DNA from: Dicyema japonicum
Taxonomy: Eukaryota; Animalia; Dicyemida
Length of the DNA stretch: 64,000 nucleotides
Assembly (NCBI GenBank): GCA_011109175.1
Contig: RDEW01000006.1
Coordinates: 1,448,133-1,512,132, forward strand
Reading direction: 5' to 3'
Shown here piece by piece: positions 2,131 through 64,000 of this stretch (its first letter is position 1; every line of letters begins with the position of its first letter). The position numbers were made by a program, and so were the translations under genes. The notes below the pieces were generated by a model. It was not told where the DNA came from and searched no databases. It saw only the letters and a program-made list of their open reading frames with translations.

Positions 2131-2893
2131 ATGATTGGATTAATTGGTTTTTAAAAATTACTAATTAAAGGAATCGTACTATTATCTGAGCTATTCGTCA
2201 CCAACTCATATAATCATCGTCATCACAGAAACCATCATGACAATCGCCATAATAGGGACAACAATGAACACAACCAAGATCGAAACCATCATGATAATCA
2301 CCATAATAAAGACAACAATGAGCACAACCAAGATCGAGACCATCATGATAATCACCATAATAGGTACAACAATGAGAACAACCAAGATCGAGACCATCAT
2401 GACAATCACCATAATAGGGACAACAATGAGAACAACCAAGATCGAGACCATCATGACAATCACCATAATAGGGACAACAATGAGCACAACCAAGATCGAG
2501 ACCATCATGACAATCGCCATCATAATGAGCACAACGAACATAGAAACCATCACACTGATGATGCCAATAAAAATCATACTAAAGATCGGCAAAACCATAA
2601 CAATGCATATATTAGTGATTTTATTTATTTAGAACGACCACCACCATAACAATCGCAATGTATTAATGTAACTTTATTTTAGAACCACCACAATATAAAG
2701 TCAATTTTAATTAAAGTCACGTGATTATTCTTCCTGCAAATATTGCATTTACTATAAAAGCAAGGGACTCCAATATAGAGTTGTTAGTTTAATAATTCAG
2801 GCTTATTGGGCGAATGAGGATATCGACGTGAAGAGACTTGCCGAACAGTACTGCGTTAATAATGGAGAATGTCCGCCCACTTTGAACTCTTGA
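2131..2893 (+). CDS. Putative secreted His/Asn/Asp-rich repeat protein with micro-exons and a 4-Cys C-terminal tail
   Basis: ATG at 2131 plus a 24-nt GT-AG intron (2147-2170) gives the signal-like MIGLIGIVLLSELFVTNS, then HHDNHHNRDNNEHNQDRD repeats. Further introns at 2605-2632 (GC-AG), 2660-2682 (GT-AG), 2695-2716 (AT-AG) and 2780-2800 (GT-AG) give ...SRDYSSCKYCIYYKSKGLQYR/AYWANEDIDVKRLAEQYCVNNGECPPTLNS*. Confidence 0.7.
2233..2535 (+). repeat. Coding tandem repeat, 54-bp unit (18 aa), 5 full copies plus a partial
   Basis: Units begin at 2233, 2287, 2341, 2395, 2449 and 2503 (CATCATGAYAATCRCCAT...). Confidence 0.95.
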
Positions 2894-3808
2894 ATTCATT
2901 AACTTACTAATCTACTAACAGGGATTCATTGGGTTATAATAAATATTTATTGGTGATTTTCATGTCTTTAGAATATTTGGTATTTCATTATTATTACATT
3001 TTCTGAATAACTTAGTCGGTGAACCATCCTAAATGATATTTACCGATTGAATGAGTTAAAATTAATAACTTCTTCTGTGAAGGGACCAACCACTTTCGAG
3101 GTCTTTTCAGGTAAAAGGGCACAATTCTTAACCCACGTACCAACGACATGAGATGACTCAACAAAATCACATGAACCGCATTATAGTAAAGTTTGGATGT
3201 TAAAGAGAAAGTCAGGGATCACCTAATACTTTTCCTATATTGGTGATGATCAGTTATCATTTAATGACATTTGATGCACAAATTAGTTTCGTGCAATCGA
3301 CCATTAATAGTAGAGCATCTTTGTTTACATTTAATTTGTTTCATTATTCCTATGAATTTGATTTATTGTCACGTATTAGTATTTAAAAAATAATCAATAT
3401 CACCGAAAAGTGTGTACCATCAAGGACTGTTTAGGCCTATGTGCGGATGTTGAATTGAACCCATGGCAATTAACAAATGTTCAACTAAAAATCGATGGAG
3501 TCCAAACTCTGAGTTTTCTATAACATCCCAGTCAGTCCCGTTGTTTTCCTTAAGCTGGTATGTCAAATTCGACAGTTGAACTGCCACAAACAGATTTTGT
3601 AGTTAAATAAATTACTCTGGATTCTCACTGCACACAAAAAATTATTCCACTATCAAGATTTTAGCTCATAGTTAATGGAAATCCTTATGTTCTGCTTATA
3701 GATGATAATTTTTGGCATTTTTAGCCTAAAATGTCATGAGTTAAATTATATTATTTTAAGAAGACATAGATACCATTTTTTCCAGATTTCCAAATTTTTA
3801 GTTTATTT

Positions 3809-5221
3809 ATTTTTTTTTCATGATAAAAATTTATTAACAATAAAATATTATTCATTAACTATGGGGGAGAGCGGATGCTGACATCACGGAGTAAGCGTTT
3901 CCGCGAACAACTGCGATACCAATTCTTTGCCTCAGCCAGACCGCTTCCCGCACGTCTTTCTTGCGGTGGGCCAATTTTCCTCCGATTTCCTTTAGGAAAG
4001 AGGCTGTAATACTTCCGGCCGCACCAGACGTCTCGATTGCTACCGGTACAAAACGGTAGCGGTCTCTAATTTCGCCATATTTTTTAATCTTGATTTTCTC
4101 GGCCAGATCGGCTGCCGATCCAGCAGACTGCGCCGAGCTGAGCATCATCGAGTTCGAGAAAGAGTCCACAACAGTGCAGTCCCATACGAGCGATTTTCCC
4201 TCAGTGAACGGAAAGATGGATAACCCATCCGGTCTTTTCCCATCTCCGCGGTTTAAGCTCGCATGACAATGTTGTTCATAGCAGCATGGCGAGGTGCTCT
4301 GCCCGCACTCTTTTTGCACGAAAGTGGGGGCAGCCCTTTGGCATCGACGATCTCTCCACAGCGACATTGGTGTTCGACGCAAACATCAGCTCCCAGGCGT
4401 TGTGCGATCCCAATTCGAATACAGTCATCGTCCAAAAGGGTGCCCAGGAAGGAACACGGGAGTGCATCCAGCCATGCTCCGCTCCCATGGTTGGCGGCGG
4501 ACACGAGAAATGCAAGACGATGCTGGTTGGCCTCAGACTTTAGCACGTCGAAGATTTTCTTGGAGTAAATATCATCCCAGTCACGTTGCCTCGAAGGATC
4601 GTTTGGCATATCCAAACCAGTTTCACACCATTCGCAACGAGCTTCGTCGAAGCCTTTTTCCTAAAAAAGTCCGGTTGTAATACGTAGGATTTCTTGGACC
4701 AAAAGGCTTTCACTTGAAAGCGATGACACATATGCTGGATAGGCGATCTCCAGCACCTACCTGAGACTTGTTCCTCCGAGGCGTGTAGGAAGCTTGCATT
4801 GGTTCCAACTCAAAGTGGATGTTTAGAAGCAATTCAGCTGATTTTCTCAATGTCCAATCCAGTGACAGGAGGATGTCACGATGTTTAAAGCAGGGAGAAC
4901 ATCGGAGAAAACCAGTGAAGAATTGGTTCCGTAAGCGAGGAAGACAAATGGAATAAGTTCCGGGGCTCGTTTGCTTGTAGTTTCGAAAATTTGATCTCTC
5001 TTCAATGAATTGAAGGCATTGCAGATGTCCAGCTTGACCCCACTGTGTGGGTTTTGTTCGTCTTTCTGTCCAAAAAACACCTCGCAGCATCCGTTCCTTA
5101 CACCAACCCCCAGTTGGAAGGGGGAAAATTCTTCAGATATTCTCGGACAGACAATGCTGCATGCGATTTTTGCTGTCAGTCTTCTGAAATAGTTCCCGAC
5201 TGCGATGGGGCGGACCCCACC
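3809..5221 (-). mobile_element. 5'-truncated CRE-like non-LTR retrotransposon (RT + restriction-like endonuclease)
   Basis: RT motifs GGVRPIAVG...FQLGVG...KLDICNAFNS; then SGAWLDALP and a Cys/His region; RLE motifs RGDGKRPDG...LVWDCT...IKKY...FVPVAIETSG. A-rich tail. 13-bp TSD TTTTAGTTTATTT at 3796-3808 and 5222-5234. Confidence 0.9.
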
Positions 5222-5469
5222 TTTTAGTTTATTTGTTAAAAATATATTTTTGAAATTTAATACAGAATTTCTTGTTATGACGTGCGTGCTTGTTTCTACT
5301 GTTGACAAAGAAGCATTTTCAACGGATCTATCTACGAAAGATTTTGATAGAGAAACCAATTGTAACGTAGACCAAGTGGTCCATAGGCTATGTGGGACTC
5401 AAAAAAAACTACCTCCTGGTCTGGTGTCACAGCCACATTGACGTGCAAATCTCCTTTCTTTAAATGCTG

Positions 5470-7779: not shown

Positions 7780-10135
7780 TCAGATTCATGGAATTGAATG
7801 TTGTTAGCGTAGTGTCATGTGGCTCACCAAAAATGGTGTCACCCATTCCAAAAAAGAACGAAAAGAGCCAACAGCTTCTCCCCACCGTCCGGTGGTCCCC
7901 TCAACTTATGTGTCTCCAACCCTATCTGGTGTCACCTTTTGTCCAGACTTCTGATTCTTTTATGTGGAGACGTCAAAACCAATCCTGGTCCATGGAGAGA
8001 TTTGACAACTATACAACTGAATACGAATGGGATCAGGAGGAAAATCTTTGAACTCCTGGCACTCCTCCGCGAAAATGGGGCTGATCTCGCTTTAATACAG
8101 GAGTCCAAGCTATCTCCCTCTATACCAACACCTTCTTTTCCCGGATACACAGTGCTCCTTAAAGATCGTCAGGGAAGACTGCCATTCAGAAAGCTGACCA
8201 TATTTTTATTCCTGTATCGTCATACAAGAAGTTCATTCTTACCCTCAGCTCTTATACAATAAGTCTTACAATACAAAGAGACCGGTTGAAGAGATGCCAT
8301 CTGATGGACCTGGAGTCTTTGACAGCCCTCAGACAACTAAATAAAAGATCTGTCAGAGCATAAAAGAACACAAGGACAAGAGATGGCAGCATCTAGTTAA
8401 CCACCTCGACAGGAAAAGCTCATCCCGACATTTCTGGAAAACTCTTAAACAAGTCAAGTCGGAGCTGGATGATGCAGACGGAACCAGAAAGCCTTCTCCT
8501 GAACACTTATTTCATCCTAACACCCTTATTAAGTATTACGCTGAAATTAACTTCAAAACCTTTTCGAAACACCTGGACATTAGGGTGCCTGCCCATAAAC
8601 CAAAGAAAGAACCTTACCACGAACTATTCTCAGATGACCAAGTCTTGGATGTTATCACCAGATTAAAGAGCTCACGGGCGTGGGCCTGACAAAGTATCTT
8701 CTATTCACCTAAAACACCTAAGCCACTACGCAGTTGGCTACCTCACGCATATATACAACCTGTCCATTAACTATAATATTATTCCAAGATTTGGAAGAAT
8801 TCTATCATCAGACCGATATTGAAGGCTGGGAAACCAGAGACAGAACCTGCATCCTACAGGCCTATTTCCGTTACCAGCACACTGTCAAAAATTATGGAGA
8901 AACTTGTATTATCAGTCATTATTCCGTATCTTCCGCGTCCTATATTTCAACATGGTTTCCTCCGCGGTAGGTCCACCGCTACATACTTGGCAACTTTATC
9001 GCAGTTCATTGCCGACGGTTTTAACACCCATCCTCCGCCTCACAAACGCACAATCTTGGTTTCTATTGACATCAACAAAGCCTTTGACACTGTTTCGAGG
9101 AAAATCTTGGTTGGAAAAATTTTCTACTAATATTCGTCCGAATGTGAAATTATGGCTGGCCAACTTTTTGTCTGGAAGACGTGGAAGAGTAGTCAGCGGT
9201 GATCTCAGATATAGATCACGATTACTACTGAACGGGGTACCCCAGGGGTCTCCACTTTCACCAATTTTATTCAACCTTTTCCTACACGACCTACCTAATG
9301 ATGGAGACGAAGATTCCCTGCTATTATCCTACGCAGACGACGTAGTCATTGCAATACGGAACCGCTCGACGCAAGTCGCATCCCTTAAAACTCAGACAAA
9401 ATTGAACATTTTCCACGATTGGATTGTTGGCAATCGACTAACGATTTCTGCAATCAAGTCTATCTGTTCCACATTCACGTCGGACCGTCGTTCCAAGGAT
9501 GAACCGAGTCTTTCATTGGTCCCACTCGGATTCCAGTGGCAAGTCCCCCACTGTCCTTGGAGTCAAGTACGACAGTCTACTCAATTCAACTCCCACGCAA
9601 AAGACATGATTACCAGGGGCCTCCAGAAAATTAACGTTTTTCGCGCCCTTGTCCGGAGAACCCCGAGGAATATGAGCTTTTCTGTTTCTACCAACAAACA
9701 ATCGCGCCTGCCATTGAGTATGCCTCCGTTGCATGGAGATTCGGGCTATCGGAGTCTTTGGTCCAAAGAATCAACTCGATATACTGGAAAACAATCAGTA
9801 TGCTTTCCCCACGTAATGAATCAACAGTCGACCCACTACTCATGGAAGCTAAGATCCGTAGTCGTGGTTCCTGATTTCTTCGCGTTTGTGAGGAAGATGG
9901 AAACCCGCTTCGCCTGAATTTCCATGGCAAGAGAAAACCGATTGGATAGGAAATTCCCCTCCCCGATCGGATTCCTTTGCAAGACTGAGAGAAGGCTCTT
10001 CCGGAAAGTAGTGGGGTCAATGGAAGATCACAGACGTCGAATGGCACAATTGATTGCGGGACTGGGATCACCTAACTGTTTGACTCTTTTGTCTTTCTTT
10101 CTCGGTGTTCCCGGGGTTATTAAAATAAATAAATC
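7780..10135 (+). mobile_element. Near full-length degraded APE-RT LINE with N-terminal 2A-like motif
   Basis: LLILLCGDVKTNPGP, QLNTNG, LIQESKL (APE). SYRPISVTS, QHGF, DINKAFDTV, GVPQGSPLSP, YADD (RT). Ends in the family tail GGGATCACCTAA...GGGGTTATTAAAATAAATAAA. Confidence 0.9.
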
Positions 10136-11470: not shown

Positions 11471-11745
11471 ATTTCAATCGAGATTTGGAACTCTTAAGAA
11501 ATAGGTGGATCAACTAGAATTTGAGAGCATAACGGAATCACCATATAGGTAGCGATGTGTGAATCAAACCTACGTCTAATGGCGACTCTACGACAGCATT
11601 GAGGACTATGACTGTTGGTCACCGATTTTTATTATTTAACTGATTATTTCACAAAATTGTATAATTTGAGTCTTGGTAATAATATTAAATTAAATTATAA
11701 AATTAATAAATTTAATAAAATAAATATAGTTACACAATTTTGTTT

Positions 11746-12044
11746 ATGGTGAAAGAGTAAATTGGTTATAATATTGCAGGAATAATAACGTCACTATCAA
11801 ACCTGATTCCCCAGAGGATGGAATCCCAATAGATCACGCTGCTATCATTCAGCGGAGACTGAGGAGACAAAATAAATATTTCGATTCTGGGGATTACAAT
11901 ATGGCCAAGGCTAAAATACAACCTGGAAGTGACAAAGATAAGGTCTTGAAGAACTCAACTGGTCGCGTCCACCCCACCCCTTCTGATATCCCCCGTAAAC
12001 AATCCAGCTCTTCCCTTCCTCCCCCCTTTGGAGAGGACGTCTGA
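11746..12044 (+). CDS. ENSA: Alpha-endosulfine / ARPP-19 family PP2A-B55 inhibitor
   Basis: MVKE, 23-nt intron (11757-11779), then NNNVTIKPDSPEDGIPIDHAAIIQRRLRRQNKYFDSGDYNMAKAK...STGRVHPTPSDIPRKQSS...EDV*. The diagnostic FDSGDY Greatwall site is intact. Confidence 0.95.
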
Positions 12045-23780: not shown

Positions 23781-24465
23781 TGACAATTTATATTAAAACT
23801 ATAACATTATTATATTTCATTTAAAATTATTAGCGTGATTTCGGATACTTTGTGATGAGTCTTGTTCAAAAATAGTTAGAACCTATAAAGAGGAATATAT
23901 TTTTTTGGATTTATTAAAATCCTCAGGATCTTCATAAACGGCATTGTTTGCAATGTGATACAGTATTTTCCAATGAGGCAATGAAGCCATTGCCCTTAAT
24001 CAAACATTCCAACTCAATGGAAAAAAATAGATTTTTTTGAATTAAAAAAGAATTATGAAAATAAAAACACTTTAATTATCTTTTTAATAAAAGTACATTT
24101 CAAAATGTTTCCGAACATTTATTCATACAAAGTTTAGAGATAATTGCAAAAACTGGTTACCTGATTTATTTTAATTTGTATGTAATCCCAATTCGAAGGC
24201 AGATAGTGTTAATCTCCTGTATTATTAACGAATATTTACAAAAAGATTCTTCAAACATACTGAAAACCATCCCATTGAGCAATGACACAATAAGAATTGA
24301 TGAAAGTCTAATGACATTGAACAATCTTTAATATTATGTCGCGCGCACAACGCACAACGATGAACAACGCGCAACAAATCATGTGTCAATCAATGTCATG
24401 TCAAAACCACGCCACGTCATTCGATAGTAGATTAGCACTTTCCGAAAATATTCGTAAATCTAAGG

Positions 24466-25560
24466 ATGCCTGCATACAGAGGTTATATAAAATGTTATGA
24501 TGAATATGAAATAATCGAACGCATTATTAAAGACCAAGTATCTCCAAGTACCAACAGGCATAATAAATTACGTCTTCTACAAAAATCAAGAAATTTCATG
24601 ATCAACGACAAAATGTATCTGAAAGATCCGAATGGAAATCACAAGCCTGTCATTTGTATGGACAATGAGATGGATGTTTTGACCTCAGCACTCCATAACC
24701 TGGCTCATCTTGGAATGAATAAAATGGAGGATCTCTCCAATGAACACTACTTCCACATTAAAAGAAGTGTAATCCGTAAAGTAATTAATTCCTGTGAAAT
24801 CTGTAAGTTTTCTACTCTTTAAAAGTTTGTTTTTTGGTAATATTTTAATAGATAAGTGAAGAACATTACATCATTGCGTTAAAACCAAATGAAAGGTTTA
24901 AACTAGATCTCATTGATCTGAAAAGATCTTATTCTGTCAACGATGAATACAAATGGATGCTCACTGTAATTTATGTATATTCAAAGATGCTTAAAATCAT
25001 ATATTTAAGTTTCAATGGAATTAAAAAGCATATTCTATGAATATGGGCCTTGTATGACAATCAGACAATGGTACAGAATTTAAAAATTCATAGAACGATT
25101 CAATCAAACCATCACACGATTCTGTCAAAAATGATGGCAAAAAACGCTGGAAAATCTTGGATTAAAATGTTACATAGTGCCACTTATATGTATAACATAA
25201 CTGTACATACGTCGAGCGGAAGAACACCTTTTGAGATGTATAGAGGCATTCCTGGTTTTAATACTGTTACACTAAATGATGATTGGTTGTATTTTTTATA
25301 ATTTGACATAGATTTGGAGAATGATATTTGCGAGTAAATACTGATGTCGTTCCGTATGATGAGTCGTTAGACGAAACAAATAATGAAGCTACAAAGTCTG
25401 CTTGTGAAATGGTTTACAAAAAATGATTTTAAATTAGAACATTTCCAACTTAAGCTCATAAAATCGAATTTGAATACACCTTATTTTAAGAGAATGAACA
25501 AAAAGATAACTGTTCATTATGGTAAATACACGTTTTTATGTGAGATCAAGTTTTTATTAA
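24466..25560 (+). mobile_element. Degraded H2C2 zinc finger + rve integrase element
   Basis: LHNLAHLGMNKM...VINSCEIC, LDLIDLK, SDNGTEFKN, YNITVHTSSGRTPFE. Confidence 0.78.
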
Positions 25561-27920: not shown

Positions 27921-28303
27921 TAAGTGCCTAAAATACCTCTGCAGACAAAATACCTCTAAAAAATAAAATACCGACAAATACCTATAAAATACCTCTGCAG
28001 ACAAAATACCTCTAAAAAATAAAATACCGACAAATACCTATAAAATACCTCTGCAGACAAAATACCTCTAAAATAAAATACCGACAAATACCTATAAAAT
28101 ACCTCTGCAGACAAAATACCTCTAAAAAATAAAATACCGACAAATACCTATAAAATACCTCTGCAGACACTAAAGAAGGCACTTCTGGAGGGGAGTTGGG
28201 TCACTGGTGGAACATTCAAAGAGAATTTGGGAGATATTGGAGGTTGGGATCACCTAATTAGTGGGTTAACCATTCTTTTTTGGTGGTCTTGTTGTTTAAA
28301 TAA
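27921..28303 (+). mobile_element. 5'-truncated APE-RT LINE 3' end carrying the minisatellite, inside one TSD
   Basis: ORF end ...ILEVGIT*; 15-bp TSD AAATTAACGAAAAAA at 27906-27920 and 28304-28318. Confidence 0.8.
27929..28168 (+). repeat. Minisatellite, about 56-bp unit x4 plus a partial
   Basis: Units start at 27929, 27985, 28041, 28095 and 28151 (TAAAATACCTCTGCAGAC...). Confidence 0.95.
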
Positions 28304-29100: not shown

Positions 29101-29258
29101 ATAAAACACAATCCCTATCGAATTGTTTAATTTTGGAAACCTTTAACAATATTGTCCATTATTATTGTAGATTTAACACTTAAAAGATGATAATTAATAT
29201 CCAGGAATAATTTATTGGATATTTATTAAAATATAATTTTTATTTTAATTCTAATATA

Positions 29259-29809
29259 TCCGAAGAAGCGCCGGAAGGGGACCACGTCATGCTGCTCTGA
29301 ATGATGTGATCGTCAGAGCTCTGAAGGCTTCAGGCTTCCCAGCACAGCTTGAACCAGTGGGTCTTGATCGAGGAGATGGGAAGAGACCTGACGGGATGAC
29401 CCTTTTCCCCTTCACGTCTGGAAGATCTTTGGTCTGGGACGCAACTTGCATAGACACGTTCTCAAGCACGAACATTTTTAAATCTGTTCAGACACCTGGA
29501 GCAGCTGCTTCGACTGCGGAAAACCTAAAAATCAAGAAATATTCTTGCCTCGGGGATCGCTACCGATTTACTCCTGTTGCGACCGAATCATCGGGAGCCG
29601 TTGGTCCAATGACGGCTGAATTCTTGCAAGAACTCGGAGGATTGCTTGCCAGAAAGAAAAGGGATCAACGAGAAGGGTTATGGCTAAGACAAAGGATTGG
29701 AATAGCCATACTCCGAGGGAACTCGTTCGCAATCCATGCAGCAGGCTTCCTCAACTGACATTTGTTTAATTGTTAAAAAATTTTTTTGTTAAAAAAAATA
29801 AAAAAAAAA
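29259..29809 (+). mobile_element. Young 5'-truncated CRE-like LINE (RLE domain open)
   Basis: Open ORF RHAALNDVIVRAL...RPDG...WDAT...KKY...RGNS; A-rich tail; 12-bp TSD AATTCTAATATA at 29247-29258 and 29810-29821. Confidence 0.93.
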
Positions 29810-33330: not shown

Positions 33331-33792
33331 ACGCATCTCAAATTGCACTAATGTCTTTTTCACTCTTTTCAAACTCTTTGTTCACGCTTGCATCCTTCAA
33401 CGTTCGAGGACTAAAGTCGTCGGTCACTCTGCCAGGATCTGAACAAGAATCACATTAGTTAATTATTATTGCATTTTCAATAAAACTATTCGTTACCGAG
33501 TTGAATATCCTGGACATATCCTTTCCCAACATCTCGTCCTTTCCGAGTATCCGCCATTATAGAAACCCCCAGTGGAGTAGTGAAGAAAAAGATTTTTTTG
33601 ATGACGGCCAGACATTGGACGTCCCCTGGGTTAATGGATCCAACCACGCCTCTAAATACGGAAGAGGGGGAAGGAAATCCTTAGACCAAGTAGGTAGCTG
33701 TATCTAAGTCACAACCTCGAGGACAATCCCATTAAAGCATAAATGTGTTATAATTAAAGGGAACAAATCAATAATTAGTGAATTAGTAATCC

Positions 33793-35259
33793 CTAAAAGC
33801 TCTCAAATGTATCCTTTATGATTTGTGTGGACTCCAAGAGCTCTTCCTCAGTTATTGTTAGGGCAGGAGCAAAACGGATTTTATCCACGTGGGTAGTTTT
33901 GGTCAGCAATCCATTTTCCATTAGCCTTCTACAAATATCGTCCCCATTGTATTCTTAACCATTATTTCCCACAAATAAACCCTTCTTGACGACAATTCCG
34001 TTAAAAAGTCCTTTTCCACGGATACATTCGACGTATTTTGGATTGATCTTCCTGACCTCTCGTCTAAATATCTCCCCCAAATATTCAGCACGATCTGACA
34101 ACTTTTCTTCTTCTATTACCTAATAATAAAGCTGAATGGTCACTTTAAGGGCCTCTAGTGCTACTTTCGAAGACAAGGGGTTACCACCAAATGTAGACCC
34201 ATGTGTCCCAGGTTCCATGGTCAACATAACCTCATCATCCGCCAAAACGCAGGAAATCTAGATGATTTACACAATAAACCGGTAGCAATCCCCCAGATAA
34301 TGATTTCCCGAGGATAACAATATCTGGTCGTACATTCTCGTGATCGACACACAATTTTCTAACTTTAACGAGTATTGTACCTCCCAGTTCTTCCAAGGCC
34401 TGTTTGGACCTCATCATCAATGAAGAGAACATTATTTCGTTTAGTAATCTCCCTGACGCCTGTAAGGTACCCATCCTTGGGGACTACAACTCCAGCCTCT
34501 CCTTGAATTGGTTCAACCATAAAAGCACAGACATTTGGATCCTGACAGGCTTTCTAAATGAATATTTAATAATCGAAGAACATCGAGAGCTTCAAGATCA
34601 TCGTAGTCGACCATAACTACTCCTGGGAGGTAAGGACCGTACCCATTATAGCAGGATGGGTCAGTTGATGAGGAAACTGCCGCCATTGTACGTCCCAAAA
34701 GTTATCTTTAGCGTAAATTATTTTTGCTTGATTTTGTGGGATCTTTTTGACATAGTATCCCCACTTCTTGGCAAGCTTGCAGGCAGTCTCCCCACCCTCG
34801 GCGCCTGAAGGTCACTCCACATACAACCAGTGTTCATGGGCAGAACCTTGTCATATCCAAACAGTTTAGTGATGTATTCTGTGTAGGCCTCGAATGGTTT
34901 ATTATAGAAGGCTCGTGAAGATAATGTGAGTTCTTTAGCTTGGTCAATCATAGCTTGGACGATCCTGGGATGGCAGTGACCCTGATTCACAGCACTGTAG
35001 CCACAGAGGAAGTCGTAGTACTTCTTCCCAAACGTATCCCATACATAGCAACCTAGCCGTGTGTTAATGGGTAACCTTTTCCATAATTAATGACAACTGG
35101 TTGTGCCTTATAATTATGTGCACTGAATTTGTCGACAGTCTCGATCACTTTTGTGTCCACTTTGAAGGGATACCCATTTCTGACTGATGTGGCTGTAACA
35201 AGTAATTATAAATCACAACCATTGCTAATATTCCTCACAAAATTAGATAACTTAGACAT
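33793..35259 (-). CDS. OAT: Ornithine aminotransferase, mitochondrial (about 423 aa; one apparent 1-nt deletion)
   Basis: Eight introns (27, 23, 23, 28, 22, 22, 24, 27 nt). Motifs [65 protein letters not shown]-lysine [28 protein letters not shown] needs one extra G at 34694-34696. Confidence 0.95.
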
Positions 35260-47126: not shown

Positions 47127-48259
47127 TTACTTTAGGAAATTGCAGTCTATTTTGATGCATTGTTTATCATCTACATCGAATATGGAGACGTAAAATCCTC
47201 CAGAATACGAAGCCACAGCCATCCAGTTCAATCCGCTGTGTTTCCACGCGTAAACCCTTGTGTCATATCCTTGGGAAGGGATCTTTAGCCCCATCGTATT
47301 CCTCTGAGTGATAAGGGAGACGAATAAGGTAGATATGAGATCGCAGAAGTTATGTAGCTTCCAATCACCGACCTATCGAATCATCCACCAAAATACACGT
47401 TAGCTGACATTTCAAAAATGTGGACAGTGTCCGAATCCGATGAACAAACCAAATACTTATCATCTACAAAAAAGAACGAAGTAATTTTGGCATTTTTGTA
47501 TATTCCTCTCAAAAAGTGATGGACGATATCCCCACTATCCACATTCACCACATAAATGTAGATCCCCTAGAAGTGGTTACGCGCAGTGTACATCAATCGA
47601 GGTCACAGCAAACTCATCCCCGCCTGAGTTGAACTCAATCTGAGCTATCTCCTTGTCACATGGTTTGATCACGTTGATAGTTTCCTTGAATAAACTGGAA
47701 GAGTACCAATCTAGCCTCTCCCTTTTCTACGATAACCCTGCAGACCGTGACCGAGCCAATGTTGGGGAGAGAAGGATAAGCGAATTGAGTGGTAGAAGTT
47801 TTTGTAAAAATGGCCAGAGCACTTGAAGAGGTCTCCTCATTTGTGAGAACTTTAATGACTTCATAGTTCTCTGCATTGAGCACGTGGAGTGAGTTTGTTA
47901 GACGAATCAATATCAAATTCTTGTCTATCTTAAAATTCAATATGTGCTCGTTGAATTTCAATTTCTTTATTTGTCGTCTCTGAATAAAGTTGAAGACCAC
48001 AAAATAGCAAGGTAGCCGATACTCCACAAAAAAGATCATATGGTCATGGCATTCCGCACAATAGACCTCACGATAATCTAAACTTTATGTTAGTCAGTAC
48101 TTCCACGTGAGTCGTATATAAGTTCGAGGTAGGCCACTTCGTTGAGGGAGAAAATTCGAAAGCCATCGTTATGCCGACAGTTAATGTAGTACCTATTACT
48201 GGAGGACAGGATTGAATAGAGGAGCTGAAGTGAATACTATGAATTTTAATATTGGCCAT
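47127..48259 (-). CDS. WIPI/ATG18 PROPPIN beta-propeller, divergent (1-2 apparent 1-nt deletions; C-terminus may extend to about 46900)
   Basis: TLTVG-HNDGFRIFSL; QFAYPSLPNIGSV; IKPCDKEIAQIEFNSGGDEFAVTSID/GIYIYVVNVDSGDIVHHFLRGIYKNAKITS...LVCSSDSDTVHIFEM; SYLP; MAVASYSGGFYV. Introns of 22-26 nt. Closest in layout to WIPI1/2. Confidence 0.85.
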
Positions 48260-48967: not shown

Positions 48968-50660
48968 CAGTGGTTCTCAAACTTTTTAAAAAAAAGACAT
49001 CGCGGTCCTTCACTAAATTAGTTAATTAACATTTTAACAAAAACAAAAATTAGTGCAAAATTAAAGAATGATAATTAATGAGATGGATGCACTTGTTTGG
49101 CCATCATCAGTTTTTCTAAGTCGGGTTGTGTTTTGGACAATGCAACCCTCATGTCATTTGACACATCCAATCTATTGCGGAATTTTGTTTTGATGGTAAG
49201 TAGTGCTGAAAACGCTGTCTCACTCTCATATGTAGTTGCAAATGGAATAAGCACTTTAAGTGCCATCTTTGCCAATTCTGAATAGGAATCAGCCATTTGA
49301 ATCCAAAAATCGCTTTGAAACTTCGTTGAAAACGTGTTTTGCATATCCATCATTAAACAAATCGATGAATTGTTCCTGAATTATATGGTTTTCACAAGGA
49401 GGTCCTTAACTGAAATTGCAAATGGGTTGCTGAGAAAACGATAGTACTTATCAAATTCAGAAATATTAGGAAAATATCTAAAAATTAATAATATCGAAAA
49501 AATACCTAGAAATTTCTCTACTAATAAATAATATACGTTGTTTCATCGCATCAATGGTGTAGTTATGGAAACTTCATTTTCATCAATATATTTAGATGTG
49601 GAAATGCCGCAAAGTTGTAACTATTTAATTTCGAATTCCACCGTTCTAGTTTCATTTTGAAACCAGTAATTTTTTCATGGCAATGGAGGACTGTGGTGTC
49701 TCTTCCTTGCAGTTGTAAATTAACAAAATTCACAGATTCAAATATATCCAACAAAAATGCCAATAAAGTAAAAAAACGAGTATCAGAAAATTTTTCATGC
49801 AGTTTTGGTTTGACGTCTTTAAGAAATTCATGTATTCTTTTCGTAGTATCAATGCTCTCTTCAATACTTTTCCTTTTGAATGCCATCTCACATGTGAATG
49901 CAACAAAAGAGTTTCAAATTCAGAGTCATTTTCTTTGCATAACTAAGCAATTAGACGAGAACTAAGTGCTTTAATATAGTTTATCGTTTTATGATATTCA
50001 TGACATTTTTCAAATCGTCAGGCATGGTTTTCATCATCAATGCATGACGGTGGATCATGCAATGTATACAAATAGCATTTGGGGATTTTTCCTTGACTAA
50101 AGTTTAAAATCCGGAACGGCAACCAAACACGTCTGTGTACACACCAACTAAATTATTCCAATTGATGCGATGTACTTCAAAAAATCTGTCAAGTTTATCA
50201 AATATATCCCTGGCGGTTGTATTAGTGCTGAGAGTTTCACAAAACAAGAATTCATCTTCAAAGTGCTTGCATGTATATAACGAACATATACGCATAATTG
50301 AAATAAATTGGCGATATCAGTGCTTTCATCAATTTGGATAGCAAAAAATTGGAACATTAAATTTTTAATCATCGCGATTACAATGGACAAAATATTATCG
50401 GCGAAATCATTTATTCTTCTACTAACAGTATCATTGGAAAGTGAGATATGCTTCAGAATGTGAAGTGATCAAATCTGGAATTGATCAATCTTTGGGGTTT
50501 GAATTTGAAGAAATCAACATCCTTTTGTGTTGAACTAGGATGTTTAGATTCCATATGCCTCTTTAACTTGCTTGGATTAAGTGAAGTAGACGCCAAAACC
50601 TCTAAACACACTGTGGTTTTAATTTACCTTCAGAAGTTATCAGAGTGAATCCATATTTGA
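48968..50660 (-). mobile_element. hAT Buster/SCAND3-ZBED8-like transposase pseudogene
   Basis: CAGTGGTTCTCAAAC terminus; LNPSKLKRHME, SLSNDTVSRRI, FAIQIDESTDI, HCMIHRHAL, LIPFATTYESETAFS...VHPSH*. Confidence 0.92.
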
Positions 50661-50686: not shown

Positions 50687-52555
50687 AACACCCAAGACCA
50701 CGGTAAAACCAAAACTAACTATCACGTGATCCCGATGCGCTCCGCCAAAATCCTCATTCTTTCCCAGTGCTCCTCCCTCGTACCCACACAAGCTCGTACA
50801 GGGCAGCTGACTGTATTTGCAGGGCCACCTTCCCGCATGCCGGAGTTTTGTTTAATGAGGGCCTCCAGAGTAGTCAGTCCGGTTCTGTGTCTTCCACAAG
50901 ACCACCGCTCCGTCATTCTGAAAGCCTTCTTTTGAACGTCCTCAATCTTCTTAGTGTTCGTCCATGATAATGAAGGTCCCCACGAAGCACACGCGTACGA
51001 GAAGCATGGTTCGATGTATTGCTTGTAAATGTTCATCAAACACTGGGTGGGTACCTGTCTTCCATATTCCAGATAAACATTTTAATACATTAATCTCTTC
51101 TCGCACTTCAGAACAATGATTGCCACGTGTGGTGACAAACATAGGTGTGTATCCAGTGTCTCGCCCAGGATCTTCTGACATTTGGTGAAGGGGATTTCAA
51201 TGTTGTCCAATTTTAACTTGGCAGTCATCTTCCCCAACCTTTTGTCCGAAGTAAACATAGACGTGACCGACTTTCTGGAATTTATCGTGAGTCGGTTCTT
51301 CATTACCCAGGCGTTGAGTCGGTCCAGGTTAATTTGTAATCTTTCTGTAGCATTTTGGATATCCCGATCACGCGAGGCCAAAACAATGTCGTCCGCGTAT
51401 GTGAGTAGAACATCGTTATTGGATTCCGGTGTCGGAGGTCGCCAGGTATAAATTGAATAAGGCGGGGATAAAGGAAATCCTTGGGGGACACCGTTTGGGA
51501 GAAGACGCAAAACTGATTTCAGTCTTCCGAGGTATACACGTCCCCTCACTTAAGAAATTTGTTATCCAAAGTTTAAGCTTCCCCGGGATCTCGGACTGGA
51601 AAATTTTCTTTGATAATATTTTTCTCGAAATAGAATCAAAGGCCTTGTTAATATCAATGGAACATAAGACTGCTTTCAAATGCCTTGGTTTGTTTGAAAA
51701 GCCATCTCTAATGAAGTTGGTTAATTTCTGTAGGTACGTTGATGTATAACAATCGCTCTTGAATCCGTGTTGAAAATCCTTTTCTGGTAAGAAAGCCTTG
51801 ATTCTCCCAAGCACAAGCCTTTCCAGGATTTTTGATATGGAACATAACAATGACACAGGTCTAAATGATGCTGGATCTTCTTAGGTTTTCCAGGTTTCAG
51901 TATAGGTCGGATGTTGGCTTGCTTCCATAACAACGGTATTACAATTAATTTTTTTTAACAATTAAACAAATGTCAGTTGAGGAAGCCTGCTGCGTGGATT
52001 GCGAACGAGTTCCCTCGGAGTATGGCTATTCCAATCTTTTGTTTTAACCCTTCTCGTTGATCCCTTTTCTTTCTGGCAAGCAATCCTCCGAGTTCTCACA
52101 AGAACTCAGCCGTCATTGGACCAACGGCTCCCGATGATTCGGTCGCAACAGGAGTAAATCGGTAGAGATCCCCGAGGCAAGAATATTTCTTGATTTTTAG
52201 GTTCTCCGTAGTCGAAGCAGCTGCTCCAGGTGTCTGAACCGATTTAAAGACATTCGTGCTTGAGAACGTGTCTATACAAGTTGCGTCCCAGACCAAAGAT
52301 CTTTCAGACGTGAAAGGGAAAAGGGTCATCCCGTCAGGTCTCAATTAATTAAATAGTTATACACCGACGTTAGAAAACCGACTCCAATATCTCCAAGGTT
52401 CTTCAATAACACTACTGGAGTGTTGTCGGGACAGGCAGAGTACATTGTTCTTGTAAAATGCAGCGCATTCTTCACGTCTTCATCCGAGAAGTAAACTGGG
52501 TTAGAATCCTTCTTCAGTTTTCTCCATGAAGAAAGAAGCACTTCCGACTTGCTTA
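50687..52555 (-). mobile_element. APE-RT family LINE (RT to 3' end) interrupted by a nested CRE-like copy
   Basis: WKQANIRPILKPGK, QHGFK, DINKAFDSI, GVPQG, YADD; ends LAERIGIT* plus tail. Confidence 0.9.
51951..52341 (-). mobile_element. Nested 5'-truncated CRE-like LINE
   Basis: Near-identical to 29384-29780; 9-bp TSD CAATTAATT at 51942-51950 and 52342-52350. Confidence 0.92.
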
Positions 52556-61354: not shown

Positions 61355-61538
61355 TTTACAAAGTTATTAAGTATTTTGACAAAGTTATTAAACATTTTGA
61401 CAAAGTTATTAAATATTTTGACAAATTATTAAACATTTTGACAAAGTTATTAATATTTTGACAAAATTATTAAATTTTATGACAAAGTTATTAAATTTTT
61501 TGACAAAGTTATTAAATTTTATGACAAAGTTATTAAAT
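61355..61538. repeat. AT-rich minisatellite, about 21-bp unit x ~9
   Basis: TTTGACAAAGTTATTAAAYAT repeated with small indels. Confidence 0.93.
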
Positions 61539-61599
61539 AAATCGGAAAACCCTGTATTATTTTTAATTTTTTAAATTAATTAATTTATTAAAAAATAAA

Positions 61600-61780: not shown

Positions 61781-64000
61781 AACAACGAGGGAGCATTCTC
61801 TTCCATAAAATTACCTTCTCAGTTGACCATCAAAAGATAGTTGGAGCCATCCAAACCATATCCTCAATAGACTTGCAGGTTTGTTTATATTCTTAAAAAG
61901 ATTATAAATTTTTAATTAAAATCAGACAGAGAAATCAAGCTCGCCGACTATTGTCTCGACATCATCAATGAAGGTACGCTTGAAGCACGTGTCTTTTCAC
62001 TTTTGAAATGCCAGCCCAAAAATAATGATGGAACTAATTGAGGTAGTCTTAGTTTTTCACTAAGAACGCTTTTCCGAACGCCATGCTTAAACAACGTCAT
62101 TTTCCTTGGATGGGTGAACGTTGATGAATGTGACGAGGACACGTGTTTCCTTTCAAATGGTGATAAAATTGAGGCCACTACAGTAGCTCTTCTACGAGAC
62201 ATTCAATCATTTAAGAACTCTCTCGACGCCTCCGTGCTTCTGATTAAACAGAAGTTTACCACTTAAAAGCAAGTATTAAACTAATCTGTAGTAAAGTGAG
62301 TTATTTTTCTTGACACATGGAGCAGCTTTTAAACGTGTGTGTCAAAAGAGGAGACTGATTTGACGCCTGCTAGAGTGAGCCAATTGGTTATTATGAGGTA
62401 TCAGTCGGACTGGCACCACAAGTATGTGAAGAACATCTCAAGGACTCACACGACTGCGACAACTACCAAGATGCTGCATATTCTGGCCCAGAAGGAGTTT
62501 AAACCTATGAAGTATTTCTTGATCGACCGTGTATTCAGCAATGAATTAGTGGATGCCACACATTTGGCAGAATTCAACCAAATTGAAGAATCTGATCGAT
62601 TATGATATGTCTCTGGTTTGATGGGTTTAGTGACCCCGTTTTCTTTAATAAGTTGGGTTGGTGAGTTTGAGTGAGTTTAGGGATCACGGATCTGCTGTTC
62701 AAGGTTGCCTATAATCCATATATGGAACCAAGCATGGAGATATTCCACGACCATAAACGTTAGTGGTGTTGTTATTGTAGAATTAAACAAGTTAATGGAG
62801 ATATGGAACAGTGGAGTAATCAGAAGGGAGGTATTGTCACCAATGGGATTCCCCGATAATGTGAATTGTATTGCATGGGAGATTTCATTTGAGAGACCAA
62901 CCATGATTTTTTATGAAATGACTAATATACGGATTTGGTGGGACGCCGTGTTGGAGTTAAAAATTTAAGGAGTTTTTTGTCAACGGAATTTTAAACACGT
63001 TTACTCTAAGTGAGTTCATTCCCTCTGCAAACACCTGCTATTTGGAAGTTCTATTCCCTCAATTCAAACTCGGATTCAGAAGTCTTTGTTTTGATTGCTA
63101 TTCTTTTCTTTTGATGATTTTCCAAGCCAGAATATCCAGAAATTGGAACAAAGGCTTCCGTAGGAATCTCCACGTCTTCCTTGCCTTGGTTTTGCCTCCC
63201 CATTCCTCGCTTGAGTCTTCTGTGAGAATCAACAAACACAGAACAGTTTAAATGGAAGACTCTTTGAGGTACTCTTCGACATGTCAGATTCAGCACTCTT
63301 CCTGTTCAGTTTTTGTACAGAGGATAAGGAAGGACATTGAAGAAAATGGATTTCCGTATTTGGGGAGGAATTGTGATTATCTCACTCCAATTACTGGTAA
63401 TTAACTATTTTATTTACATATTGTAATTAACTTAATTCATTTGAGGCCACGTGCTTGAGCTCATCATATGAGCAATAATATTGTACTTAGTTCTTTTTAA
63501 ATAACGTGGTTGAATTATGTGATTAGATTATTAAGTTTTGTAGCACAAACTGACTATTCAATAACGACCACATGCTCAAGCTAACTCAATGGCCAATGCT
63601 CGTCTCACATAGATTTTGCAAGTCACGTAATATTTATGTAAAGAATAATGCAATTAAAAAAGTTTTCAGGTTAAAAATTTTGGTCTTTAGATAATAATTT
63701 TACAATTATAAAAATCTTTACTGAATAGATTAGGAGATTTCTTCAAAGAGCCGTATATGTATAGACAATTATGAAGAGCCATATTAGCTATAGTTCTTCC
63801 TAGGCAGAACACACACTCTATATGCATGTAAAAACTCAAAAATAGCTTCTGTCAAGTTTAATTTTTTAATCTTTTTAATTGGTTACAAGTGTTACTAATC
63901 ATTTTATCTCAAGAAGTTCTGAACTCGGAGGTTGATGTCCAAGAGGAACCAGGAGAAACAGCTGTCTTGTCTAGTGATTCGCTTTCTCAAGTTGTATATG

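What the first reader, a model, noticed from the sequence alone, without database searches (positions are those of the whole stretch)
2605..2716. Symmetric micro-exons (27 nt, 12 nt) with non-canonical GC-AG and AT-AG mini-introns
Seen: 2633-2659 (NDHHHNNRN) and 2683-2694 (NHHN) continue the His/Asn composition. They are separated by 28-, 23- and 22-nt AT-rich spacers ending in AG, all phase 0. The donors are GC (2605), GT (2660) and AT (2695). A canonical GT-AG route 2660-2716 skips the 12-nt exon in frame, and retaining 2605-2632 ends the protein at ...LERPPP*. Inference: a micro-exon-gene (MEG)-like system that varies repeat length and Cys-tail inclusion through weak donors.
Basis: partly seen in the sequence, partly recalled or inferred. 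Interest (0 to 1): 0.72.

Follow-up and report, generated by a model that had tools for sequence, protein, structure and literature searches.

The report
Polymorphic splice sites, His-rich parasite gene
In a likely tiny-intron animal parasite, a predicted secreted His/Asn-rich protein gene has a 28-base GC-AG intron that is cleanly absent from a likely RNA contig, while its odd 'AT' donor is a DNA variant that other copies carry as normal GT, so the variety likely comes from different gene versions rather than from weak-donor exon shuffling.

Summary
The coordinates, phases and donors are as described. Introns of 21-28 nt are this genome's norm: 7 of 7 frame-defined OAT introns are GT-AG, 22-28 nt. 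The organism is likely a dicyemid.

Public runs settle most of it. The GC at 2605 is in every listed contig that covers it. One contig of a likely RNA run lacks 2605-2632 exactly, so the GC-AG intron is real.

The A at 2695 is also real, but polymorphic: about 34-46% of depth has A, the rest a normal GT. Another version has a genomic 20-nt deletion (2663-2682) that removes the middle intron and fuses the two micro-exons. The one spliced contig matches that GT/deletion version and includes both micro-exons and the Cys tail. No AT-AG splicing, skipping or retention was seen.

Micro-exons are 6% of the coding sequence, so this is not a MEG. It is an orphan, likely secreted repeat protein whose splice architecture varies at DNA level; A-copies likely retain the intron and lose the tail.

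The parts
2131..2146 (+). Predicted exon 1, ATG at 2131; start of a hydrophobic signal-peptide-like N-terminus
   Evidence: Model; hydropathy above 2 over the first seven 9-residue windows; inferred, no RNA laid here
2147..2170 (+).
   Evidence: candidate list; retention stops the ORF at 7 aa
2171..2604 (+). Large exon 2: end of signal peptide plus His/Asn/Asp/Arg-rich repeat region (434 of 645 coding nt)
   Evidence: Open frame; exon lengths
2231..2524 (+). 54-nt (18-aa) tandem array, 5.4 copies, 93% matches, inside exon 2
2605..2632 (+). 28-nt GC-AG intron, phase 0; GC in all listed covering contigs; spliced
   Evidence: DNA pieces; the X5 contig joins the 2604-equivalent to 2633 with no possible shift (tables 7 and 8)
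2633..2659 (+). 27-nt micro-exon (NDHHHNNRN), included
   Evidence: X5 contig, 0 other letters over 2633-2662
2660..2682 (+). 23-nt GT-AG intron, present in some versions only; splicing inferred, not seen
   Evidence: Pieces 2635-2694 in X1-X3
2663..2682 (+). 20 nt deleted in another genomic version; the three bases 2660-2662 stay as one extra codon and the two micro-exons fuse in frame
   Evidence: Loose ends behind 2662 and before 2683 in X1-X3, and the same join in X5; frame checked
2683..2694 (+). 12-nt micro-exon (NHHN), included in the spliced contig
   Evidence: table 5c; the 12-mer is unique in the window
2695..2716 (+). 22-nt intron with polymorphic donor: AT in the window and about 34-46% of depth, GT in the rest; spliced in the GT version
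2717..2779 (+). Tail exon 1 with CxxC
   Evidence: X5 contig covers 2717-2775 and ends at 2780; synonymous differences
2780..2800 (+).
   Evidence: Candidate; all laid DNA contigs of X1-X3 read GTA at its start (2782 T>A); X5 contig ends at 2780, where spliced and retained paths would part; inferred
2801..2893 (+). Tail exon 2 with C-x5-C and stop codon
   Evidence: 2 of 3 listed differences synonymous
2938..2943 (+). Candidate poly(A) hexamer 45 nt after the stop
   Evidence: motif recalled, untested

Best explanation
This is a gene for a predicted secreted, roughly 214-aa His/Asn-rich repeat protein with a small four-cysteine tail, likely spliced by the ordinary short-intron machinery of a likely dicyemid, and its odd donors are one GC-AG intron seen spliced plus a G>A DNA variant at 2695 that likely disables that intron in some gene versions.

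Shown: GC-AG splicing; GT-AG splicing of 2695-2716 in the G version; coexistence of A, G and 20-nt-deletion versions in DNA.

Inferred: the locus diversifies its linker and tail at DNA level (alleles or paralogues). The versions are (i) G with the middle intron, two micro-exons plus tail; (ii) G with the deletion, one fused 42-nt exon with one extra codon plus tail; (iii) A, as in the window; (iv) repeat joined to 3075-3078, no tail. Under intron definition the intact 23-nt intron would be cut first, so A versions likely retain 2695-2716 and end at 172 aa without the cysteines. Skipping the 12-nt exon through 2660-2716 (210 aa, tail kept) is the second most likely outcome.

The protein likely acts as a disordered, metal-binding secreted matrix or adhesive component with a disulfide-bonded tail. 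That function is inferred from composition only.
For: The spliced X5 contig: 89 upstream letters + 2633-2662 + the 12 letters of 2683-2694 + 2717-2775, depth 662, 1 of 1 laid. Neither laying showed such a joint in X1-X4.

G after the 12-mer in loose ends of X1, X2 and X3, agreement 1. A in pieces with 0 differences. Depths into and out of the branch balance: 534/537, 52.4/53.0, 65.7/65.1.

Control introns: 7 of 7 in OAT are GT-AG, 22-28 nt. Tail frame: 4 of 5 listed exonic differences are synonymous against 19% expected, P=0.006; 1 of 5 in each other frame. Micro-exons are 39 of 645 coding nt.

Intron definition in short-intron genomes: PMC5014332 passages; retention linked to it: PMC1831480 abstract start.
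Against: Everything on splicing rests on one contig of one run that the tool labels 'DNA?'; that it is RNA is my inference. Contigs drop rare variants, so minor skipped or retained isoforms and transcripts from A versions could be hidden. No transcript from an A version was seen, so their fate is untested.

Two of the three tail differences peculiar to the window are synonymous, a weak hint that the window's tail is still translated, which retention would not allow. Depth is a per-contig mean and not a copy number: in X3 the deletion-bearing record has depth 44.8 while the remainder calculation gives about 31. G at 2695 in the intron-bearing version is inferred from contig break points, not printed. 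Alleles and paralogues could not be told apart.
Confidence: 0.72

Rival explanations
1. MEG-like regulated alternative splicing: weak GC and AT donors let one gene version make a pool of isoforms that differ in linker length and tail inclusion.
For: Both micro-exons are symmetric phase 0, and all three skip routes stay in frame (210, 205, 201 aa). Signal-peptide-like start; likely parasite. The X5 contig ends at 2780, compatible with mixed splicing of the last intron.
Against: The X5 contig runs unbroken across both donors as one form. All variants seen are genomic. Only 2 micro-exons, 6% of the coding sequence, with 21-28-nt introns, against 10-20 micro-exons and 0.1-5 kb introns in MEGs (PMC10526429 passages).
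Confidence: 0.12
2. True AT-AG splicing: the reduced spliceosome measures a 22-nt intron from its AG and cuts it even without the +1 G, so A versions still make the full protein.
For: A2695 is common (34-46% of depth in three runs). Donor signal in these animals is reduced to GTa (PMC13644364). A GC donor matching only 4 of 9 positions of the recalled U1 consensus is spliced here. The tail looks constrained.
Against: The only spliced contig matches the G version. The +1 G is near-invariant (established knowledge). The donor does not look U12-type (recalled consensus). 7 of 7 control introns are GT.
Confidence: 0.08
3. The window's copy is a silent or decaying paralogue, and only the G/deletion copy is expressed.
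For: X5 shows only the deletion-type form. The locus lies among retroelement remains. Another version lacks the tail altogether (loose ends before 3075/3078).
Against: The window's frame is intact from ATG through the repeat. X5 is from another sample, which may simply lack A versions. The differences in the tail are mostly synonymous.
Confidence: 0.08

Closest known systems
Ultra-short spliceosomal introns of dicyemids and myxobolid myxozoans (PMC13644364, main text read; PMC6543705 and PMC6736024, passages)
   Same: 21-28-nt AT-rich introns, donor reduced to about GTa, acceptor to AG. Window GC 36.6% against 36.7% reported for Dicyema japonicum; LINE-rich; OAT with at least 7 introns.
   Different: 'GC-AG' had 0 occurrences in that paper's one supplementary file, and I saw no mention in its main text. 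Here a 28-nt GC-AG intron is seen spliced. Taxon is inferred from these features, not from a tree.
U2-type GC-AG introns (PMC7072748, passages: under 1% of introns, mostly major spliceosome)
   Same: GC..AG ends, precise removal.
   Different: Only 28 nt long, and without the strong compensating U1 match usual for GC donors (recalled); 4 of 9 matches.
Imprecise intron loss and intron presence-absence polymorphism (PMC4443532 abstract start and reference list; Llopart et al. 2002 Drosophila case seen as a reference title only)
   Same: Genomic deletion of most of an intron, leaving in-frame residual bases; both forms coexist.
   Different: Sits between two micro-exons and next to a donor SNP in the following intron. 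Direction (loss versus insertion) is not polarised: no outgroup.
Schistosome micro-exon genes, MEGs (PMC4350168 and PMC10526429, passages)
   Same: Signal peptide, small symmetric exons, no known domain, parasite.
   Different: 2 micro-exons rather than 10-20; 6% of the coding sequence rather than most; tiny introns; no splice variants seen; no homology; the variation seen is genomic.
His-rich low-complexity secreted proteins such as Plasmodium HRP2 or squid-beak His-rich proteins (recalled, no call)
   Same: Signal peptide plus His-rich tandem repeat.
   Different: Compositional likeness only; Asn/Asp/Arg-rich with a four-Cys tail; no homologue found.

Membership tests
Micro-exon gene (MEG) | Most of the coding region in very small symmetric exons (10-20 of them) | tested here: not met
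   2 micro-exons, 39 of 645 nt (6%); 16% if the 63-nt exon is counted; definition
Micro-exon gene (MEG) | Long introns (0.1-5 kb) between micro-exons | tested here: not met
   21-28 nt
Micro-exon gene (MEG) | Signal peptide | tested here: met
   Hydrophobic N-terminus once 2147-2170 is removed; hydropathy only, no dedicated predictor
Micro-exon gene (MEG) | Pool of isoforms by exon skipping | tested here: inconclusive
   One form in 1 of 1 contig; contigs drop rare variants
Micro-exon gene (MEG) | Sequence relationship to platyhelminth MEG families | tested here: inconclusive
   No homologue for the tail; the repeat exon was searched against Pfam only
GC-AG spliceosomal intron | Genomic GC..AG ends | tested here: met
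GC-AG spliceosomal intron | Precise removal in RNA | tested here: met
   X5 contig, junction cannot be shifted; RNA nature of X5 inferred
AT-AG non-canonical intron | Removal from a transcript whose gene has AT at the donor | tested here: inconclusive
   The spliced contig matches the G version; no A-version transcript seen
AT-AG non-canonical intron | AT fixed in the species rather than a variant of GT | tested here: not met
   G in the same runs
Intron presence-absence polymorphism by imprecise deletion | Both genomic forms present, reading frame kept | tested here: met
Intron presence-absence polymorphism by imprecise deletion | Forms are alleles of one locus, and loss is the derived state | not testable with these tools
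   No genome held; contigs too short to phase; no outgroup

The most novel reading that the evidence does not exclude
The minimal spliceosome of this animal excises the 22-nt intron at 2695-2716 even when its +1 G is an A, measuring from the AG. A common donor variant then acts as a dial between tailed and tail-less forms of a host-facing secreted protein, on top of DNA-level variation in three neighbouring splice units.
Probability: 0.1. Interest if true: 0.72.

Novelty: new member of a known kind. Interest (0 to 1): 0.36.

Why it matters
It gives a read-supported case of a 28-nt GC-AG intron with a poor U1 match in one of the few animal groups with ultra-short introns. It also gives a natural experiment: the same 22-nt intron occurs with GT and with AT, and its neighbour is present or deleted. 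Counting junction reads per version would directly test whether such spliceosomes respond to a dead donor by retention, skipping, cryptic use (GT at 2700, 17 nt) or tolerance. The gene itself is an orphan, variable, likely secreted protein of a parasite. None of this is a new kind of system.

Tried and rejected
No whole genome is held, so copy number and paralogues could not be checked. No Rfam match in the window. No RNA holder was listed as such.

Assembly error as the source of C2606 or A2695: rejected, both are in public contigs. A non-canonical TT..AG splice at 2663-2682, as the tool labelled the X5 joint: rejected, because DNA-like runs carry the same join followed by the unspliced next intron. 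Origin of the micro-exons by tandem duplication of exon+intron units: not supported, since none of 10 intron pairs beat shuffles (lowest p 0.10).

Homologues of the tail: 0 Pfam families; 2 candidates, none at E<=1, longer proteins only; atlas best hit 0.79, a lead at most; 4 hits at E<=0.001 among 1.84 billion, all long repetitive proteins that look like summed weak matches. Single-sequence fold of 2717-2890 had pLDDT 54, so no fold search was run.

Taxon by homologue: OAT and endosulfine searches gave no close named relative. X4 has no cover at 2655-2966; a hole proves nothing. No earlier findings of the scan.

Paper searches listed nothing on this gene or on GC-AG or AT-AG introns in dicyemids. 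Ogino et al. 2010 was seen only as a reference and may report such donors. Supplements were searched only for PMC13644364.

Full report
Observation. Spacers of 28, 23 and 22 nt begin GC, GT and AT and end AG around exons of 27 and 12 nt. Retention of the first spacer ends the protein at 164 aa, and the route 2660-2716 is in frame. By sequence alone the AT..AG stretch is unremarkable: such AT-rich stretches occur 4.9 times per kb in this window, against 0.97 for GT and 0.19 for GC.

Context. The window is eukaryotic, 36.6% GC, with many retroelement remains. An ornithine aminotransferase gene on the minus strand has 7 frame-defined introns, all GT-AG and 22-28 nt, and an endosulfine gene has a 23-nt GT-AG candidate. 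Mini-introns are therefore the norm here. Among animals such introns are reported for myxobolid myxozoans and dicyemids, with a donor reduced to GTa (PMC13644364, main text read). The GC content and intron density fit a dicyemid (PMC6736024 and PMC6543705 passages). This is inferred; homologue searches gave no close named relative, and a myxobolid is not excluded.

Gene model. Adding a 24-nt GT-AG intron at 2147-2170 links an ATG at 2131 to the long frame and gives a hydrophobic N-terminus; without it the frame stops at 7 aa. Exon 2 holds a 54-nt array of 5.4 copies. A 21-nt stop-free GT-AG candidate lies at 2780-2800 in the tail. The fully spliced model is 214 aa: 50 Asn, 40 His, 26 Asp, 19 Arg, and 4 Cys, all four in the tail. 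The tail frame is supported by variation: 4 of 5 listed exonic differences between window and reads are synonymous, against 19% expected (P=0.006) and 1 of 5 in each other frame. At least one further difference near contig ends was not listed by the tool and is not counted. The tail has no credible homologue.

DNA evidence. Five runs hold the stretch. X1-X4 are one sample; they cover introns and flanks and show no splice-like joint, so I read them as DNA. C2606 is present in every listed piece that covers it. A2695 is present in pieces 2666-2725 with 0 other letters, at depth 409, 38.5 and 44.7 in X1-X3, against 1216, 85 and 96 for the tail. The same runs hold contigs in which 2662 is followed directly by the 12-nt exon and then by GT: a 20-nt genomic deletion of 2663-2682 with a canonical donor at 2695. 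A third class keeps the middle intron and has one difference that contig break points place at 2695, inferred to be G. Depth into and out of the branch balances (534/537, 52.4/53.0, 65.7/65.1). Rough shares are A 34/45/46%, G with intron 11/17/21%, and deletion as remainder 56/39/32%. These are rough: depth is a contig mean, and the X3 deletion record itself has depth 44.8. Other versions carry an insertion just upstream of 2602, and one joins the repeat straight to 3075-3078 with a stop, so it has no tail. The window differs from all laid contigs at 2555, 2782, 2810, 2875, 2887 and 2963, so its exact version is not in that sample.

RNA evidence. X5, from a second study, is labelled 'DNA?' by guess. 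Its 1 laid contig (195 nt, depth 662) consists of 89 upstream letters, 2633-2662, the 12 letters of 2683-2694 and 2717-2775. Its upstream end matches the insertion version seen in DNA, where 2602-2662 is identical to the window including GC. So 2605-2632 is removed exactly, at a junction that cannot be shifted. 2695-2716 is also removed. The contig keeps 2660-2662, which marks it as the deletion version, and that version reads G at 2695 in all listed DNA loose ends. Two precisely missing introns, not seen missing in X1-X4, and a small contig set (11.9 million letters) make RNA the likely source. The contig ends at 2780, exactly where spliced and retained paths of the 2780-2800 candidate would part; in X1-X3 a single contig runs through that point.

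Mechanism. Shown: GC-AG splicing, GT-AG splicing of the third intron, inclusion of both micro-exons and the start of the tail in the one spliced form, and at least three genomic versions of the micro-exon region. Inferred: with introns this short, splice sites are likely paired across the intron (PMC5014332 passages), so a dead donor tends to give retention. A versions would then make a 172-aa protein without the cysteines. Skipping the 12-nt exon (210 aa) or the cryptic GT at 2700 (17 nt, frameshift, 195 aa) are alternatives. Against retention, 2 of 3 tail differences peculiar to the window are synonymous, which is weak. No A-version transcript was seen, so AT-AG splicing is neither shown nor excluded.

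Comparison. MEGs have most of their coding region in 10-20 tiny symmetric exons with 0.1-5 kb introns, and make isoform pools (PMC4350168 and PMC10526429 passages). Here 2 micro-exons make up 6% of the coding sequence, introns are tiny, and one isoform is seen. It is not a MEG, though it shares the secreted, variable, orphan character. GC-AG is the commonest non-canonical class, under 1% of introns (PMC7072748 passages). Imprecise intron loss and presence-absence polymorphism are known (listing, reference). Searches listed nothing on this gene or on GC-AG introns in dicyemids; Ogino et al. 2010 was not read.

Verdict. The feature is real, and half of the oddity is explained. One true GC-AG mini-intron, one donor polymorphism and one intron-deletion polymorphism lie in a variable orphan gene. 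It is a new member of known kinds, interest 0.36, and a useful natural test of minimal splice signals.

Noticed in passing
window 33790-35240 (-): Ornithine aminotransferase gene with 7 GT-AG introns of 22-28 nt and a frameshift at a T/G homopolymer near 34694-34700, likely a long-read assembly error; a sign that the window holds residual indels.
   Followed up: partly
window 3075-3078: Contigs of X1, X2 and X4 join the His/Asn repeat directly to this point with a stop codon: a tail-less version or paralogue of the gene.
   Followed up: partly
window 2981-3025: Contigs of X2-X4 jump back from 3025 to 2981 with 17 letters between: a local tandem duplication downstream of the gene in some versions.
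   Followed up: no
window 11745-12044 (+): Endosulfine/ARPP19-family gene with a 23-nt GT-AG intron candidate at 11757-11779.
   Followed up: partly
window 62300-62970 (+): Phenylalanyl-tRNA synthetase alpha-like sequence with frameshifts and degraded motifs, likely a pseudogene.
   Followed up: partly
window 47659-48084 (-): Weak PROPPIN (WIPI/Atg18-like) match, below the Pfam cut-off.
   Followed up: no
window 3858-5398 (-) and 29255-29755 (+): Two related broken non-LTR retroelement copies with a zinc-knuckle and endonuclease-like C-terminus (family recalled as CRE-like, not tested). Other RT remains near 8823-9914 and 51085-51880, a hAT fragment at 49078-49380 and an integrase zinc finger at 24436-24819.
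   Followed up: no
window 27929-28169 and 61358-61539: Tandem arrays of 56 nt x4.3 and 21 nt x8.8.
   Followed up: no
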